This document shows, piece after piece, positions 46,272-50,420 of a stretch of DNA of 64,000 nt (the first letter of the stretch is position 1; the number at the start of each line of letters is the position of its first letter). A program made the translations under genes and the position numbers. The notes beneath the pieces are model-generated. The model was not told the origin of the DNA. It did no database searches and saw only the letters and a list, made by a program, of their open reading frames with translations. The stretch is from Escherichia coli (lineage in GTDB: Bacteria > Pseudomonadota > Gammaproteobacteria > Enterobacterales > Enterobacteriaceae), in the NCBI RefSeq assembly GCF_030013205.1, contig NZ_CP122648.1; one strand, given 5' to 3'.

Positions 46272-46832
46272 ATGAAGGCAATTATATTTTTTGTTTCAAT
46301 ATTGATGTCTGCATTTTCTTTTGCAGGGCAAAATGTTAAATGCGAACTTCAATACTTTGGAGATAGCGATAAATTTAAGGTAACTCAGTTTTCTTTTATG
46401 GGGATTCCATCTGATTCATACCTTTATACCTGTGCCGACTGTGGAGGCATCCAGATAAACGTGTTCCCATCTATTCAGACTGTTGCTTCCTACTCATTTG
46501 AAAACAACATTGATTTCGAAAGGAAAATCAATGCTGAATACAACAGAAAAGACATAGCTAAACTTGAGATGGAAAACGTTACTCAAGGCGGGAGAATAAA
46601 ATATTCAATCACCGATACTGGTTTGGCAGAGTTTTACCCAGAGGGCAAAAAGATAAGCTACCTCTACTTTTTAGCCAAGCAACAAAATGGTAAAGAACAA
46701 GTAGGTTATTCAGGATTTGTTACCTCTAACGGGGATAAGTCATGCTCAATTATTGCGACATATCCAGGAAAAGAAATTTCTTTTCTGGGAAGTAAATCTT
46801 TAAGCTACTTTATGAATCATATATCAATGTAG
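46272..46832 (+). CDS. AT-rich accessory gene encoding a secreted 186-aa protein of unknown function
   Basis: Signal peptide MKAIIFFVSILMSAFSFA-GQ; sharp fall in GC relative to flanking virion genes; starts 2 nt after the core-operon stop. Confidence 0.55.
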   Translation: MKAIIFFVSILMSAFSFAGQNVKCELQYFGDSDKFKVTQFSFMGIPSDSYLYTCADCGGIQINVFPSIQTVASYSFENNIDFERKINAEYNRKDIAKLEMENVTQGGRIKYSITDTGLAEFYPEGKKISYLYFLAKQQNGKEQVGYSGFVTSNGDKSCSIIATYPGKEISFLGSKSLSYFMNHISM

Positions 46833-46844
46833 CGTGACATGTCA

Positions 46845-46872
46845 CAGGCCGCTTTCGCGGCCTTGTTTTTAA
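46845..46872. terminator. bidirectional terminator
   Basis: Stem caggccgc/gcggcctg followed by T-run. Confidence 0.55.
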
Positions 46873-47030
46873 CGAATGCCACCGCCACCCGGGCGGGAAT
46901 CCGCAGAACGCCCACCGCAGCGGGAGCCGTCAGCGGCAGTATCGCTGTCGTGCTGACAACGACCGGCAAAGGCCTGAGTTGAAGCTACCAGAGACAACAA
47001 AACGAACAGTGCAGCAAATGCTTTTTTCAT
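46869..47030 (-). CDS. possible small secreted Cys/Gly-rich protein
   Basis: 53-aa ORF MKKAFAALFVLLSLVASTQAFA-GRCQHD... within the 46869..47102 track ORF, flanked by two terminators; GC-rich unlike its neighbours. Confidence 0.3.
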   Translation of the reverse strand: MKKAFAALFVLLSLVASTQAFAGRCQHDSDTAADGSRCGGRSADSRPGGGGIR

Positions 47031-47102
47031 TGTGAAGTTTCCATCTATAAGCCACCTCAATGTGGCGTCAATGAGTGTAGCACTGGCTTTTGTTTCGTCC
47101 AC

Positions 47103-47136
47103 AAAAAAAGCCCGCAGCGCGGGCTATTCTTTTTTG
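47103..47136. terminator. bidirectional rho-independent terminator
   Basis: aaaaaaagcccgc-agc-gcgggct-attctttttt. Confidence 0.6.
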
Positions 47137-47990
47137 CTATTTCTTTGATATATATTTCTTCCATTTTTGGTAACACGAATAACGTGCCCCCTGGATTCTA
47201 CTTTGTTATTTGTTGCTTTATATACTTCAAAATCAAACCATGATATATAACTTATTTCGTCAATAGACACCATGATCTCAAGTCCTGGCACTTTCTTTCT
47301 GCTAATTCCTCTTATTGCTGCAGTCCGCTTGACCTGTATTTCTCCTGGATAAGCATTAGTGAATGTGACAGATAAGTTGTCTTTGTTCCTGTATCCTGAC
47401 ATTAAAGGAACAAAAGATATGTGCTGATGCGGACCCTGATTTTCCGTTGGTTCACCAGAACCATTTATTATTCCAACATACACTTTGTTTGATGATAAAG
47501 TAATCAGCATTGGTCGTTTAGGATCCGATTCAATAGCATCAAGCAATAGTAAGTCTAAAGAACCTTGCGAGTAAGTTTTTCGCAGTACTCTGGCCTTCAT
47601 TGCCTCTGTTTTTTGCTCGTAAATATCACGTTTATAAAAACAACCAAGAAGAAAATCTTTCACCCACACAACAGACACATAACACAAAGAGAAGCAAATG
47701 GATGTGGCTGAGAGAAGAAGCAGCCACATGTAAATTCTATCTGTTTCTGGTTTTGATGTTACATTAAAAGTTTCCACCATATCGTGAACTAGGTGAAAAT
47801 CAGGCCATTTATATTTTATAGCGGCTGCAATTATTACTGATGCAACAAGGCAATATGTACCTAGTGCCGCTACTTTCATATAAAGAAGCTGGCCTTCGTG
47901 TCGGTATAAACGGAAATAATGATACTGGTTAGCGGTTATCATAATATAACCGCTAACCAGGATTGGGATAATTAGAAGAGCTAGCAACAC
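47124..47990 (-). CDS. uncharacterised membrane protein (N-terminal TM helices + ~170-aa soluble C-terminal domain); candidate abortive-infection/exclusion effector
   Basis: 288-aa ORF, strongly AT-rich; hydrophobic segments LLALLIIPILVSGYIMI, VAALGTYCLVASVIIAAAI, IYMWLLLLSATSICFSLCYVSVVWV; start overlaps the upstream gene stop (ATGA). Confidence 0.55.
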   Translation of the reverse strand: MLLALLIIPILVSGYIMITANQYHYFRLYRHEGQLLYMKVAALGTYCLVASVIIAAAIKYKWPDFHLVHDMVETFNVTSKPETDRIYMWLLLLSATSICFSLCYVSVVWVKDFLLGCFYKRDIYEQKTEAMKARVLRKTYSQGSLDLLLLDAIESDPKRPMLITLSSNKVYVGIINGSGEPTENQGPHQHISFVPLMSGYRNKDNLSVTFTNAYPGEIQVKRTAAIRGISRKKVPGLEIMVSIDEISYISWFDFEVYKATNNKVESRGHVIRVTKNGRNIYQRNSKKE

Positions 47991-48199: not shown

Positions 48200-48306
48200 A
48201 TATCCTCCTCATGTAAACACATGGTTTACCTTTAAGGTAATATTACGCGAATCTACATCACATCGCCAATGATTATTTTAAAGGCACATCCCTGTGCCGC
48301 CGCTCG

Positions 48307-48996
48307 TCAGAAGAACCCTGCCTTGTCGTTGATGTACTCCGCGTGCGTCTGGATATCACGCAGGCATTTGCTCACACCGACGATGTAGCAGAACATGGTG
48401 GTCAACTCCGCCGCCGCGCCCGATACGTCGTGCCCGTCTTCCTGTAACTGGTTCAGCAGATTCATCAGCAGTGAGTTCTCCGTCAGGCCGAGAACACCAG
48501 ACGGAGAATGAATCAGGCTGCGGTAGCCGGGCTTCAGCGGGGCACTGTAGGTTTTGTTCTCTATCTTCATTGCCTGCATCACTGCTGATGCTGTGGCGTT
48601 GGCTACCTGGTCGGCAACCATCTTTATGCGTTCTTCCTGCGGGAGCGAGTTTTTAATGTAACTTCCGGTGCGGCGGATCTGAGGAAGAACCTCACCTGTA
48701 ACCCATTCAAGAAATCTGAATGCTCTCGTTCCCTCAGTCATTGCCTCTTTGCAACGCAGAATAAGGATGTAGAGACCTGATTCTGAAACGATGGATAGTT
48801 CTTGTATTCCACCAGGGGTCTGTATTGAATACAGCCCCTTTTTGTTCCAGCCTTTTTTATCAAGTTTTCTCGCTTGTGTAACATCAATATTCAAAGCATT
48901 GCACACATCTTTGGTGACAAACCAAGGTTCTCCGTCAATCATGAACATACGGATCTGGCAGGATGACTCAAAGGAAAAGATGGAAGGTTTGGTATT
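48307..48996 (-). CDS. Bro-N domain protein (putative antirepressor)
   Basis: Start set at MNTKPSIFSFE...IRMFMIDGEPWFVTKDVCNAL (Bro-N-like); C-terminal domain paralogous to the 91-aa ORF at 50145-50420. Confidence 0.6.
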   Translation of the reverse strand, partial: NTKPSIFSFESSCQIRMFMIDGEPWFVTKDVCNALNIDVTQARKLDKKGWNKKGLYSIQTPGGIQELSIVSESGLYILILRCKEAMTEGTRAFRFLEWVTGEVLPQIRRTGSYIKNSLPQEERIKMVADQVANATASAVMQAMKIENKTYSAPLKPGYRSLIHSPSGVLGLTENSLLMNLLNQLQEDGHDVSGAAAELTTMFCYIVGVSKCLRDIQTHAEYINDKAGFF

Positions 48997-49394
48997 CATG
49001 GCGATCACCTTTGTAGTTAGGTTAATCACCACCGCTGAGACCAATCAGATGGTGGTGAACTGTGCAGAGTTGGTCTTACCGGCTACAAAGGAACCCGGCG
49101 CACCTTTCGGTGCCCCCACACAGCCCACCATAGAATAGGTGCGCTTTACACATAAAAAAACCGCTTATGCGGCATATGTGCCTCTGTAGTAATCCGGGAG
49201 ACCAATCCCGGCACTGGATTTTGCCAGTGCCCGATTACTATGGCACAAGAGGAGTGCGATGTAAATTTACCGCAAAGGTAATGATAAACGCGAAGAAATA
49301 TTAAAATCAACCGTATTTGGTTGATTGCGTTTAACGCTTGATCACCTGAAAGCAAGATATTACCTTTAAGGTAATGTTATTGTGAGGAAAGGCA

Positions 49395-50123
49395 ATGGAA
49401 GTTTTCTGGGTAGTTGTTGGTGTGGTTGCGGTGATTATTTACGTTATCAACCAGAACAAGACTAAGATCTCTGATCGTACGGTCGTTAATCATAACAAAA
49501 CGATAAAGACTGAAGATGGGGAGATAACGATTAATCGTACACAGGTGATAGAACACACCTCCACTCAGTTTCAAAAAACGGGAGATAATGCGCCTAATAT
49601 TTCCGTACCTCCTGCTTATGATAGCGCGGTAATCCAGACATATTATAAACAGCAGGAGTTAGCAAAAGAGAGGCAACTGATTCAGCCAAAGCCGTTTACA
49701 GCTGAGCTTCCACCCGGAGTGTCAACGCGTCCGGCATATCATGGAAGATTCCCTGGTGATGACATATCGTCTCAGTCATCTAAAAAAGCACCTCAGGCAG
49801 TATCAGAGCCAGCAAGAATACCTTCTGTATCGCCGCCAAAAGAAGAATCAGCTAACAGAGTTTCAAGTGGTAGCAAGCAGTGCTTGCGATGCAGAATAAA
49901 CCTTCCATATGAAAAATTCAGGAAATCGTCAAAAAATCCAGATGGATTGACTAAGTGGTGTGCAAGGTGTCTCGATGGCCCAAAGAATACACGCCATATG
50001 AAGTGGTGCCCAATTTGTAATGTCCGCAGAAAACGAACTAGCTTTTACCCTAATAATCAAAATGCGGACGGCTTAATGGCATGGTGCAAAACGTGCTGGG
50101 ACGAGCACAAAGCGAAACGATAG
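49395..50123 (+). CDS. membrane-anchored protein with duplicated C-terminal CxxC-N21-CxxC zinc-ribbon motifs
   Basis: N-terminal TM (VFWVVVGVVAVIIYVI); repeats CLRCR...NPDGLTKWCARC and CPICN...NADGLMAWCKTC; operator-like sites upstream at 49266-49282 and 49359-49375. Confidence 0.55.
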   Translation: MEVFWVVVGVVAVIIYVINQNKTKISDRTVVNHNKTIKTEDGEITINRTQVIEHTSTQFQKTGDNAPNISVPPAYDSAVIQTYYKQQELAKERQLIQPKPFTAELPPGVSTRPAYHGRFPGDDISSQSSKKAPQAVSEPARIPSVSPPKEESANRVSSGSKQCLRCRINLPYEKFRKSSKNPDGLTKWCARCLDGPKNTRHMKWCPICNVRRKRTSFYPNNQNADGLMAWCKTCWDEHKAKR

Positions 50124-50144
50124 GCCGCTAGAGCGGCCTTTTCT

Positions 50145-50420
50145 TTATGTGGTTTGTTTTCGTAATTGTTCGGCACAATAGTCGAGATGTGTTTGCAGAT
50201 CCTGCATAGACATCTGTGAGCTGGTGACGTAGTTAATCAGTGCAGTCAGTTCGGCAAGTGGGCCATCGACATTAAATCCATCCTTATCGAGATCCCGGAG
50301 TAATTTCATCAAGTGCGATCCCTCCACCAGTGATCTGACGCCTCCCGGCGTGTGAATCCTTTCGGTAAATCCGTCTTCCAGTGGATAGTGATACTGCTGC
50401 ATCTTATCTTCTCCATGCAA
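50145..50420 (-). CDS. standalone paralogue of the Bro-N protein's C-terminal domain
   Basis: 91-aa ORF; HTPGGVRSLVEGSHLMKLL...QTHLDY aligns with HSPSGVLGLTENSLLMNLL...QTHAEY of the 48307-48996 protein. Confidence 0.5.
   Translation of the reverse strand: MHGEDKMQQYHYPLEDGFTERIHTPGGVRSLVEGSHLMKLLRDLDKDGFNVDGPLAELTALINYVTSSQMSMQDLQTHLDYCAEQLRKQTT

What the first reader, a model, noticed from the sequence alone, without database searches (positions are those of the whole stretch)
46272..50420. AT-rich accessory region inserted between virion-core genes and tailspike
Between the last internal virion gene (ends 46269) and the tailspike (starts 50598) lie about six genes of mixed orientation, each with its own promoter-like or terminator signals and much lower GC than the virion genes. 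They encode a secreted 186-aa protein, a small Cys-rich secreted peptide, the two-gene membrane operon, a Bro-N protein, a zinc-ribbon membrane protein and a 91-aa protein. Such accessory regions in prophages are typical locations for anti-phage and host-interaction cargo.
Basis: partly seen in the sequence, partly recalled or inferred. Interest (0 to 1): 0.7.

Follow-up and report, generated by a model that had tools for sequence, protein, structure and literature searches.

The report
Prophage antirepressor switch and cargo hotspot
This stretch is the fast-changing "antirepressor" region of an epsilon15/phiV10-like E. coli prophage: two of its seven genes and two small RNA elements are the phage's own wake-up switch, and the other genes are swappable cargo of unknown function. 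It is a recognisable kind of region, with a few untested twists.

Summary
Window 46272-50597 carries seven ORFs on both strands, has GC 0.44 against 0.55 for the virion genes, and is rich in terminators. It is hypervariable: 57 relatives gave 56 different intervals of 241-4602 bp, and only 7 of 5426 complete E. coli genomes carry at least 80% of this version.

The "91-aa protein" is an 85-aa homologue of the Salmonella phage SPC32H antirepressor Ant (PDB 5D50_E, E 1e-47). It has a LexA box next to its start and is present in 52 of 56 distinct intervals, so it is core switch machinery. The Bro-N gene carries an Ant-like C-terminal domain. It sits behind a P1 immI-type leader (Rfam C4 78.6 bits, isrK 74.7 bits) whose loop is complementary to its ribosome-binding site.

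A phage-wide palindrome, TTACC-N5-GGTAA, occurs 9 times where 0.03 are expected. It flanks the repressor gene and marks the promoters of the 69+288-aa operon, of the Bro-N leader and of the zinc-ribbon gene. I infer these genes fire on derepression and are not expressed in the lysogen.

The true cargo (A, B, D-C, F) matches no known defence family. The closest known analogue is the "ant moron" of P22-like phages.

The parts
46272..46832 (+). A: 186-aa exported protein, cargo slot 1, probably co-transcribed with the late virion operon.
46846..46863 (+). Intrinsic terminator ending the late-operon/A transcript.
   Evidence: 7-bp stem with 6 GC pairs, followed by a T-run. The segment is shared with phiV10.
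46869..47030 (-). B: 53-aa signal-peptide protein, a small moron-like gene between two terminators.
   Evidence: Matches phrog_14503, 'membrane associated protein', moron category. Found in 19 of 56 distinct intervals. In the phage collection it occurs only in Escherichia and Klebsiella phage records (12 records). The hexamers TTGACG-16-TATAGA (47071-47044, minus strand) lie only 13 nt from the ATG, so the promoter assignment is uncertain (read).
47109..47125 (.). Bidirectional terminator between C and B.
   Evidence: Found on both strands.
47124..47990 (-). C: 288-aa membrane protein with three long N-terminal helices, a helical linker and a C-terminal Sm/Hfq-like beta-barrel. It is the larger gene of the D-C cassette in cargo slot 3.
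47990..48199 (-). D: 69-aa soluble protein, translationally coupled to C (the TAG stop and GTG start share one base).
   Evidence: Coordinates. Matches phrog_5739. A D-like small gene precedes C homologues in a Providencia prophage with the same virion-tailspike-lysis layout and in a Pectobacterium island. No PDB match.
48226..48269 (-). Slot-3 promoter with operator: -35 TTGGCG (48269-48264), 18-nt spacer, -10 TAATAT (48245-48240), and the palindrome TTACCTTTAAGGTAA (48226-48240) centred near +1.
   Evidence: Palindrome; hexamers read. This promoter-operator segment is homologous to the one upstream of the YafO-like cassette of TL-2011b. Similarity ends just after the operator.
48307..48999 (-). 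E: antirepressor with an N-terminal Bro-N domain and a C-terminal domain homologous to SPC32H Ant and therefore to G.
   Evidence: PHROG anti-repressor families, with phrog_450 on residues 162-243. Residues 149-225 match 5D50_E at E 9e-14. E is 81% identical to vB_EcoP_ZX5 ORF4, with an identical C-terminal half. Overexpressing ZX5 ORF4 lowered the prophage titre about 1000-fold (PMC9782041). An E-family gene is present in 32 of 56 distinct intervals.
49048..49135 (-). C4-type antisense RNA (P1/P7 immI type) in the leader of E.
   Evidence: Rfam RF01695 at 78.6 bits (gathering score 45), E 8e-16, full length 1-87. The C4 loop CCUUUGUAG is exactly complementary to CUACAAAGG, 9-17 nt upstream of the E AUG. 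C4 AGACCAA is complementary to UUGGUCU, both just 3' of C4 and in the a1b1 element.
49154..49243 (-). IsrK-like sRNA / a1-b1 target element with its own terminator (49160-49173).
   Evidence: Rfam isrK RF01394 at 74.7 bits (gathering score 50). c4-a1b1 RF03163 at 39.9 bits, below its gathering score of 46.7, E 1e-8. Terminator. The leader is conserved upstream of the antirepressor gene in 44 sources, among them phiV10, Tyrion, TL-2011b, ZX5 and the Providencia locus.
49267..49374 (.). Divergent control region. Operator TTACCGCAAAGGTAA (49267-49281) abuts the -10 of the leftward promoter of the E leader (TTGATT 49310-49305 / TATCAT 49286-49281). Operator TTACCTTTAAGGTAA (49360-49374) lies 21 nt before the F start.
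   Evidence: Similarity to phiV10 ends at 49271, inside the first operator. The F cassette therefore appears to lie between that operator and the stop codon of G.
49395..50123 (+). F: 242-aa protein with one N-terminal TM helix, a low-complexity linker and two C-terminal CxxC...CxxC zinc ribbons. Cargo slot 5.
   Evidence: Matches phrog_6762, with short ribbon matches to endonuclease VII and Lar-like families. No significant Pfam match. 33 homologue clusters, those named by their source all Enterobacterales. No PDB match. Present in 3 of 56 distinct intervals and 128 of 5426 E. coli genomes.
50122..50139 (+). Terminator of F, lying between the convergent F and G genes.
50145..50402 (-). G: 85-aa SPC32H-type antirepressor Ant. 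This is the conserved core gene of the interval.
   Evidence: Matches 5D50_E at E 1.3e-47 over residues 2-85. The cognate repressor at 31583-32167 (-) matches 5D50_A at E 4e-42. G is present in 52 of 56 distinct intervals, and the shortest G-containing intervals (about 630-700 bp) contain only G.
50424..50439 (.). LexA (SOS) box CTGTATATTTATACAG, 22 nt upstream of the G start codon.
   Evidence: The only AT-rich CTGT-N8-ACAG in the window. The equivalent box is conserved in phiV10, an epsilon15-like phage, Tyrion, TL-2011b and the IMG/VR relatives.
50479..50493 (.). Operator palindrome TTACCCGAAAGGTAA in the G-tailspike intergenic region, upstream of a conserved TAGAAT element and a 5'-UTR hairpin of the tailspike gene.
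   Evidence: The architecture is conserved across divergent relatives.

Best explanation
The interval 46272-50597 is the phiV10/epsilon15-group (Uetakevirus) counterpart of the "ant moron" of P22-like phages. It is a recombination-prone gap between the ejection-protein genes and the tailspike gene. The gap houses the phage's antirepressor switch and, around it, exchangeable cargo cassettes.

Shown by sequence:
1. G is an SPC32H-type Ant with a LexA box at its promoter. Its cognate, SPC32H-like Rep is encoded at 31583-32167.
2. E is a second antirepressor, a Bro-N domain fused to an Ant-like domain. It lies behind a P1 immI-like leader made of an a1b1/IsrK-like element, a C4 antisense RNA, and C4-complementary sequences over the E ribosome-binding site.
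3. A palindrome, TTACC-N5-GGTAA, brackets the repressor gene and other phage promoters. It also sits at about +1 of the promoters of D-C and of the E leader, and 21 nt before the F start.

Inferred working model:
- In the lysogen, Rep tetramers occupy these operators and LexA occupies the SOS box.
- DNA damage removes LexA, and Ant is made. Ant dismantles Rep, as shown for SPC32H.
- All operator-controlled promoters then open.
- E adds a second antirepressor whose translation is gated by C4.
- D-C and F are expressed as early or induction genes.
- A is made with the late virion proteins and exported to the periplasm.
- B has its own terminators and possibly its own promoter.

The cargo functions are unknown. 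My best guesses are these:
- D-C is a toxin-antitoxin-like or abortive-infection pair, with C as the membrane effector.
- A and the other slot-1 envelope proteins act in superinfection exclusion.
For: Variability and a conserved core:
- Intervals in relatives range from 241 to 4602 bp, with 56 distinct sequences among 57 relatives. G occurs in 52 of the 56, E-family genes in 32, B in 19, A in 15, D-C in 6 and F in 3.
- The ordered slot architecture is the same across relatives.

G and Rep:
- PDB 5D50 chains E and A match at E 1e-47 and 4e-42.
- The LexA box at 50424-50439 is conserved across the genus.
- Rep tetramer binding to palindromic sites, and its disassembly by an Ant tetramer, are summarised in PMC9638917.

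E:
- Its C-terminal domain is Ant-like.
- It is 81% identical to ZX5 ORF4, which reduced lysogeny when overexpressed.

RNA leader:
- Rfam C4 scores 78.6 bits and isrK 74.7 bits, both above their gathering scores.
- There are exact 9-nt and 7-nt complementarities to the E ribosome-binding-site region.
- The leader is conserved in 44 sources.
- The same logic is documented for P1, where the c4-icd-ant operon is repressed by C1 and also by the C4 antisense RNA (PMC8198154). It is also documented for Gifsy-1 isrK-orf45-anrP (PMC4825925).

Operator:
- 9 perfect copies occur where 0.03 are expected.
- The same motif sits at equivalent promoters in phiV10 (8 copies), an epsilon15-like phage (11), Tyrion (9) and TL-2011b (10).
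- In roughly 20-kb loci of relatives, the perfect copies that lie in or beside the interval number two to four per locus.
- The slot-3 promoter-operator is homologous in front of different cargo, D-C here and a YafO-like pair in TL-2011b.
- Repressor overexpression in ZX5 cut holin and endolysin transcripts by more than 99.9%.

The P22 'ant moron' concept is described in PMC2629481.
Against: - No experiment shows that Rep binds TTACC-N5-GGTAA. The primary SPC32H papers could not be read here.
- The motif is the same in phages whose Rep proteins are only about 42% identical. No covariation test was therefore possible, and a Cro-like or other regulator could be the binder.
- The operator at 50479 is not at +1 of either flanking promoter.
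- There is no icd-like gene between C4 and E, and the a1b1 model scores below its gathering threshold.
- Generic promoter scans show no enrichment.
- TA-like cargo is normally useful only if expressed in the lysogen, which sits uneasily with repression by Rep.
- The prophage is defective: terminase, portal and capsid genes are deleted. Present-day function may therefore differ from that in intact relatives.
Confidence: 0.75

Rival explanations
1. One reading: this is a classic lysogen-expressed moron or defence island. The genes would be transcribed constitutively from their own promoters in the prophage state, protecting the host from other phages or altering host interactions.
For: - A, C and F have low GC and GC3.
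- Terminators bracket the cassettes.
- B is filed in a PHROG 'moron' category.
- Relatives carry YafO-like and HicA-like toxin genes in the same slot.
- C resembles a membrane effector architecture in fold.
- The prophage is defective, yet the region is kept intact and is 100% identical in several ETEC strains.
Against: - G, E and the RNA leader are regulatory core, not cargo.
- There is no convincing PADLOC hit for any of 17 proteins tested.
- The D-C, E-leader and F promoters carry the phage operator at or next to the start site.
- A has no separate promoter and abuts a late gene.
Confidence: 0.2
2. The cargo genes serve the phage's own lytic cycle rather than the lysogen. For example, they could provide superinfection exclusion or receptor masking late in infection (A and the other slot-1 envelope proteins), or host takeover (D-C, F).
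For: - Slot 1 always lies on the late strand, directly after the ejection-protein gene, and encodes an exported or membrane protein of varying family.
- A has a PsbP/Mog1 fold shared with periplasmic T6SS immunity proteins such as Tsi3, and with DcrB.
- Operator-controlled promoters imply expression after derepression.
- In P22 the analogous interval holds the exclusion gene sieA (PMC2629481).
Against: - The fold similarity has low sequence identity (5-12%), and the fold is functionally promiscuous.
- There is no functional data for any of these proteins.
- Most relatives do without A, D-C and F.
Confidence: 0.3
3. The genes are conserved virion or morphogenesis components, and the low GC reflects chance or local mutation bias.
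For: The region lies inside the late gene block, between structural genes.
Against: - The shortest Ant-containing intervals, about 630-700 bp, contain only G, and three distant relatives have only about 240 bp.
- phiV10 and an epsilon15-like phage lack A, B, C, D and F entirely.
Confidence: 0.02

Closest known systems
The 'ant moron' / immI region of P22-like phages, between gene 16 and tailspike gene 9 (Villafane et al. 2008, PMC2629481)
   Same: - It occupies the same position, between the ejection-protein genes and the tailspike gene.
- It is variable in length and gene content between otherwise syntenic phages (ten types in sixteen genomes there; 56 of 57 intervals different here).
- It usually contains an antirepressor with dedicated negative control, including an antisense RNA.
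- It also contains exclusion genes or genes of unknown function.
   Different: - The phage lineage is different (Uetakevirus, not P22-like).
- The window has no mnt, arc or sar. Control is by LexA, a C4-type RNA and a phage-wide palindrome instead.
- There are two antirepressor genes that share one domain.
- One relative, TL-2011b, does carry an Arc-like repressor and an Ant in this interval.
SPC32H Rep-Ant antirepression system (Kim & Ryu 2013; Kim et al. 2016; PDB 5D50)
   Same: - G matches SPC32H Ant at E 1e-47 over its full length.
- Rep matches SPC32H Rep at E 4e-42.
- A LexA box lies at the ant promoter.
- The position next to the tailspike gene is the same as in the epsilon15-like relatives examined here.
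   Different: - The host is E. coli.
- A second, Bro-N-fused copy of the Ant domain (E) is present.
- Binding and induction were not tested here.
Phage P1/P7 immI operon (c4-icd-ant) and the Gifsy-1 isrK-orf45-anrP locus
   Same: - The order is the same: a promoter with a repressor operator, then an a1b1/IsrK-like element with a leaky terminator, then the C4 RNA, then C4-complementary sequences over the ribosome-binding site, then the antirepressor gene.
- The Rfam C4 and isrK models both match above their gathering scores.
   Different: - There is no icd gene. The upstream reading frame is fused in frame to E in this copy.
- The antirepressor is a Bro-N/Ant-domain protein.
- The putative operator is the Uetakevirus palindrome, not a P1 C1 site.
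- The a1b1 model scores below its threshold.
Type II toxin-antitoxin cassettes carried by prophages (YafO, HicAB)
   Same: - D-C is a small gene followed by a larger gene, with an overlapping stop and start.
- It occupies exactly the slot that holds a YafO_toxin-domain pair or other small+large pairs in relatives.
   Different: - Neither D nor C matches any Pfam, NCBIfam or PADLOC family.
- C is a 288-aa membrane protein, which is unlike classical type II toxins.
- Toxicity has not been tested.
CBASS 'SMODS-associating 2TM beta-strand rich' (S-2TMbeta) membrane effectors
   Same: C has N-terminal TM helices followed by a small beta-rich domain. One AFDB50 structural neighbour carries this annotation (E 2e-14, TM score 0.53).
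   Different: - There is no sequence match to the Pfam or PADLOC models.
- No cyclase gene is nearby.
- Nearly all the listed structural neighbours carry no functional annotation.

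Membership tests
SPC32H-type antirepressor (Ant) | Sequence homology to the solved Ant chain over its whole length | tested here: met
   G residues 2-85 align with 5D50_E residues 3-86 at E 1.3e-47.
SPC32H-type antirepressor (Ant) | A cognate Rep of the SPC32H type in the same phage | tested here: met
   Window 31583-32167 (-) matches 5D50_A at E 4e-42 over residues 1-190.
SPC32H-type antirepressor (Ant) | A LexA-binding site at the ant promoter | tested here: met
   CTGTATATTTATACAG lies at 50424-50439, 22 nt from the ATG, and is conserved in relatives. 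This is a sequence match only; LexA binding was not tested.
SPC32H-type antirepressor (Ant) | Ant binds Rep and releases it from DNA | not testable with these tools
   This needs biochemistry or genetics.
P1 immI-type c4/ant module | C4 antisense RNA gene upstream of the antirepressor | tested here: met
   RF01695 scores 78.6 bits against a gathering score of 45, full length, at 49048-49135 (-).
P1 immI-type c4/ant module | Upstream a1/b1 target element | tested here: inconclusive
   RF03163 scores 39.9 bits, below its gathering score of 46.7 (E 1e-8). The overlapping isrK model scores 74.7 bits, above its gathering score of 50. The a1-like UUGGUCU is exact; the b1-like CUACAGAGG has one mismatch.
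P1 immI-type c4/ant module | a2/b2 target complementary to the C4 loops and covering the ribosome-binding site of the downstream gene | tested here: met
   C4 45-53 CCUUUGUAG pairs with CUACAAAGG, 9-17 nt before the E AUG. C4 60-66 AGACCAA pairs with UUGGUCU just 3' of C4.
P1 immI-type c4/ant module | icd gene between c4 and ant | tested here: not met
   There is no separate ORF between C4 and E. The upstream frame runs in frame into E.
P1 immI-type c4/ant module | Operon promoter repressed by the primary phage repressor | tested here: inconclusive
   The palindrome 49267-49281 abuts the -10 TATCAT. Binding by Rep is inferred, not shown.
Moron (independently expressed insertion in a phage operon) | Absent from otherwise syntenic relatives | tested here: met
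   A, B, D-C and F are each missing from most of the 56 distinct intervals.
Moron (independently expressed insertion in a phage operon) | Own terminator and own promoter | tested here: inconclusive
   Terminators are present. Promoters for D-C and F are read by eye and carry an operator. The promoter of B is doubtful, and A has none.
Moron (independently expressed insertion in a phage operon) | Expressed from the repressed prophage | not testable with these tools
   This needs RNA-seq of the lysogen.
Known anti-phage defence systems (PADLOC-DB 2.0) | Match to a defence-system protein model | tested here: not met
   No hits for A-G at E<=0.1. For ten alternative cargo proteins the only hit was a marginal LeoBC match at E 0.002.
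Type II toxin-antitoxin pair (for D-C) | Two adjacent co-oriented small genes with coupled translation | tested here: met
   The D stop (TAG) and the C start (GTG) share one base at 47990. The pair is conserved in Providencia and Pectobacterium loci.
Type II toxin-antitoxin pair (for D-C) | Homology to a known toxin or antitoxin family | tested here: not met
   No Pfam, NCBIfam, PADLOC or PDB match for D or C.
CBASS S-2TMbeta effector (for C) | Sequence match to the family model, and a neighbouring CD-NTase gene | tested here: not met
   No Pfam hit in any of 18 family members, no PADLOC hit, and no cyclase-like ORF in 46-50.6 kb. The only link is one structural neighbour with that annotation.

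The most novel reading that the evidence does not exclude
Slot 3 may be a repressor-guarded cargo socket. It has a conserved promoter whose start site is covered by the phage operator, followed by interchangeable small+large gene pairs (D-C here; YafO-like and others in relatives).

Under this reading, D-C would be a previously undescribed membrane-acting toxin/antitoxin or abortive-infection pair. C combines TM helices with an Sm/WYL-like beta-barrel sensor. The pair would fire only when Rep is inactivated, either by SOS acting through Ant or by the antirepressor of an invading phage. A defective prophage would then act as a derepression-triggered suicide or exclusion device.
Probability: 0.12. 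Interest if true: 0.7.

Novelty: new member of a known kind. Interest (0 to 1): 0.35.

Why it matters
The analysis shows that a region flagged as "cargo" is built around the switch that decides whether this widespread family of E. coli and Salmonella prophages stays silent. That family integrates at guaA, and parts of this region occur in about 10% of complete E. coli genomes.

The switch has two layers that share one protein domain. One is a LexA-controlled Ant. The other is a Bro-N/Ant fusion gated by a C4 antisense RNA.

The analysis also gives a testable rule for the cargo. Cassettes plugged in behind the conserved operator-bearing promoter should be induced together with the prophage. If that holds, cargo in this hotspot should be screened under induction or superinfection, not in resting lysogens.

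The uncharacterised families A, D-C and F are narrow, with named members only in Enterobacterales. They are cheap to test.

Tried and rejected
- PADLOC, NCBIfam and Pfam scans of all seven proteins and of ten alternative cargo proteins from relatives found nothing beyond Bro-N/antirepressor families and one YafO_toxin domain.
- One NCBIfam call was wasted on a truncated sequence.
- PDB sequence searches for F and D found nothing meaningful.
- The primary SPC32H papers (PMC3807360, PMC4983836) are not held, so the published Rep operator could not be compared with the palindrome.
- A covariation test of operator against repressor type failed. Every relative examined in this phage group uses the same TTACC...GGTAA half-sites, even with divergent Ant and Rep. 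Only a Providencia relative shows a variant, TTAACC-N5-GGTTAA, and its immunity region was not available.
- The global RNA duplex energy of C4 against its targets was not clearly better than shuffles (10 and 37 of 500 shuffles reached it). The argument therefore rests on the exact loop complementarities.
- I suspected that the 69-aa ORF at 53088-53297 is an O-acetyltransferase remnant. It has no similarity to phiV10 Oac or to the Tyrion acetylase.
- The promoter I first assigned to B lies only 13 nt from its ATG, so I downgraded it to uncertain.

Full report
**Context.** The window contains an epsilon15/phiV10-like (Uetakevirus) prophage integrated at the 3' end of guaA. The published att core ATTGAGTGGGAATGATT (PMC9782041) occurs at 26217 and 55362. 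The flagged stretch is 100% identical to porcine ETEC chromosomes such as ETEC4071. It lies between the 850-aa internal virion gene (phrog_684) and the tailspike gene.

**Observation.** Seven ORFs lie between 46272 and 50402:
- A, 186 aa, + strand.
- B, 53 aa, - strand.
- C, 288 aa, - strand.
- D, 69 aa, - strand.
- E, Bro-N, 230 aa, - strand.
- F, 242 aa, + strand.
- G, 85 aa, - strand.

GC is 0.436 in the region and 0.546 in the virion genes. The drop comes from A (0.355), C (0.370) and F (0.439). B, E and G are near or above the phage average. Terminator-like hairpins are enriched (11 against 4.4 +/- 1.8), but generic sigma-70 matches are not (7 against 9.7).

**Variability.** I fetched 67 IMG/VR loci with the 850-aa protein and added phiV10 and an epsilon15-like genome.
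- 57 sources have both anchor genes.
- Their intervals form 56 distinct sequences, from 241 to 4602 bp.
- The shortest Ant-containing intervals, about 630-700 bp, hold only G.
- G is in 52 of the 56 distinct intervals, E-family genes in 32, B in 19, A in 15, D-C in 6 and F in 3.
- In complete E. coli genomes, 569 of 5426 share some part, 7 share at least 80%, 29 have D-C and 128 have F.

The order of slots is constant:
1. The 850-aa gene.
2. Slot 1 (+ strand): A, or other small exported, membrane or lipoprotein genes.
3. B (-).
4. Slot 3 (-): D-C, a small ORF plus a YafO-like protein, p55+p154, or single membrane proteins.
5. E with its leader (-).
6. Slot 5: F (+) or a 168-aa gene (-).
7. G (-).
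8. The tailspike gene.

This refutes the idea that these are conserved virion parts, and it supports a hotspot.

**G is the core switch.** G matches the solved antirepressor of Salmonella phage SPC32H (5D50_E, E 1.3e-47). The prophage repressor at 31583-32167 matches SPC32H Rep (5D50_A, E 4e-42). A near-consensus SOS box, CTGTATATTTATACAG, lies 22 nt upstream of the G start. It is conserved in phiV10, an epsilon15-like phage, Tyrion, TL-2011b and divergent IMG/VR relatives. Secondary sources state that SPC32H Rep binds palindromic DNA as a tetramer and that an Ant tetramer breaks it up (PMC9638917; PMC9986798). From my own knowledge of Kim & Ryu 2013, ant is LexA-controlled; I could not read that paper here.

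**E is a second antirepressor under RNA control.**
- E has an N-terminal Bro-N domain. Its residues 149-225 are homologous to Ant (E 9e-14), so E and G share a domain.
- In one relative, the same C-terminal domain is fused to a different N-terminal domain.
- E is 81% identical to ORF4 of phage vB_EcoP_ZX5, with an identical C-terminal half. Overexpressing ORF4 lowered prophage titres from 10^9 to 10^6 (PMC9782041).
- Upstream of E, Rfam finds a full-length C4 antisense RNA (49048-49135, 78.6 bits), an IsrK-like sRNA with terminator (49154-49230, 74.7 bits), and, below threshold, the a1b1 target element.
- The C4 loop CCUUUGUAG is exactly complementary to CUACAAAGG, 9-17 nt before the E AUG. 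AGACCAA is complementary to UUGGUCU both downstream of C4 and in the a1b1 element.

This is the layout of P1 immI. There the c4-icd-ant operon is repressed by C1 and additionally by the C4 antisense RNA (PMC8198154). It is also the layout of Gifsy-1 isrK-orf45-anrP (PMC4825925), except that no icd gene is present here. The leader is conserved upstream of the antirepressor gene in 44 sources.

**A phage-wide operator reaches into the cargo.** TTACC-N5-GGTAA occurs 9 times in the window where 0.03 are expected:
- Two copies 62 bp apart lie on the PL side of rep.
- One copy, plus a one-mismatch copy, lies between rep and the cro-like gene.
- Two copies 62 bp apart lie before the DUF1064 gene.
- Four copies lie in the flagged region (48226, 49267, 49360, 50479).

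The same motif marks the equivalent promoters in phiV10, an epsilon15-like phage, Tyrion and TL-2011b. In the loci of relatives, the perfect copies in or beside the interval number two to four per locus. Reading the sequence, the copies at 48226 and 49267 lie immediately downstream of -10 hexamers, centred near +1. The copy at 49360 is 21 nt before the F start.

The promoter-operator in front of D-C is homologous to the one in front of the YafO-like pair of TL-2011b, and similarity stops right after the operator. Similarity to phiV10 ends inside the operator at 49267. The cargo therefore appears to be exchanged downstream of conserved regulatory sequence.

That Rep is the binding protein is an inference. 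It is consistent with the positions around rep, with tetramer/looping properties, and with the more than 99.9% drop of lysis-gene transcripts on repressor overexpression in ZX5. It has not been shown.

**The cargo.**
- **C** belongs to a small family with named members only in Enterobacterales and has no Pfam domain.
  - Foldseek finds many uncharacterised proteobacterial membrane proteins of the same build. One is annotated as a CBASS S-2TMbeta effector.
- **D** is coupled to C by a shared base between stop and start. It accompanies C in Providencia and Pectobacterium.
- **A** is a very narrow family. A good model (pLDDT 84) shows a PsbP/Mog1 fold, shared with periplasmic T6SS immunity proteins and DcrB.
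- **F** has a TM anchor and two zinc ribbons, with no informative match.
- No protein matches PADLOC.

Functions therefore remain guesses. D-C may be a TA/Abi-like pair. Slot-1 proteins may act in exclusion, by analogy with sieA in the P22 ant moron (PMC2629481).

**Verdict.** The region is a real, hypervariable accessory interval. Its organising principle is the antirepressor switch of this phage group, and it is best filed as a new member of the known "ant moron" kind. What is not in the sources I could read is the combination of three features: a LexA-controlled Ant, a C4-gated Bro-N/Ant fusion, and operator-bearing promoters that serve as sockets for exchangeable cargo. The regulatory wiring of the cargo is inferred and needs the experiments listed under next steps.

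Noticed in passing
window 26217-55378, junctions near 36990 and 37835: The prophage is only 29.2 kb. Compared with the otherwise near-identical copy in ETEC4071, it lacks 6.8 kb (small and large terminase, tRNA-Arg, portal, protease and the 5' part of the capsid gene) and a further 1.3 kb. It cannot form capsids, yet it keeps rep, ant, the accessory region, the tailspike gene and the lysis genes.
   Followed up: partly
window 31449-31525, 32223-32285, 34572-34648, 53335-53349: Pairs of TTACC-N5-GGTAA sites exactly 62 bp apart bracket the leftward early promoter and the promoter before the DUF1064 gene. A one-mismatch copy lies before the holin genes. This spacing would suit looping by a tetrameric repressor.
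   Followed up: partly
window 50598-52967: The tailspike N-terminal roughly 220 aa is shared with many relatives. The C-terminal part (aa 230-789) had no tblastn match in any of the 67 IMG/VR relatives or in phiV10/epsilon15-like phages, so the receptor-binding part is rare.
   Followed up: no
window 52968-53453: No O-antigen-modifying gene lies between the tailspike and holin genes, where phiV10, TL-2011b and Tyrion carry an O-acetyltransferase. The 69-aa ORF at 53088-53297 (-) is not similar to the phiV10 or Tyrion enzyme.
   Followed up: partly
window 10119-21521: The host flank carries sinH (735 aa), sinI (325 aa) and a 2680-aa RatA-like adhesin gene, all matching NCBIfam equivalogs above their cut-offs. 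This forms an adhesin cluster upstream of the guaA attachment site.
   Followed up: no
L074 5633-5647, 7373, 7971 (Providencia prophage): A Providencia prophage with the same virion-tailspike-lysis layout carries the D-C pair in a different order relative to the c4-antirepressor module. It uses a variant palindrome, TTAACC-N5-GGTTAA (3 copies in 12.8 kb), in front of the D-like gene. This is a possible handle for an operator/repressor covariation test.
   Followed up: partly
L009, L016, L041 (IMG/VR relatives): Some relatives carry two c4-leader/antirepressor modules in opposite orientation within the same interval.
   Followed up: no
window 50540-50597: A conserved TAGAAT element and a GC-rich hairpin (GCGGCGCAACGGGTGCTGC) precede the tailspike start in all relatives examined. 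They look like a dedicated tailspike promoter and 5'-UTR structure.
   Followed up: no
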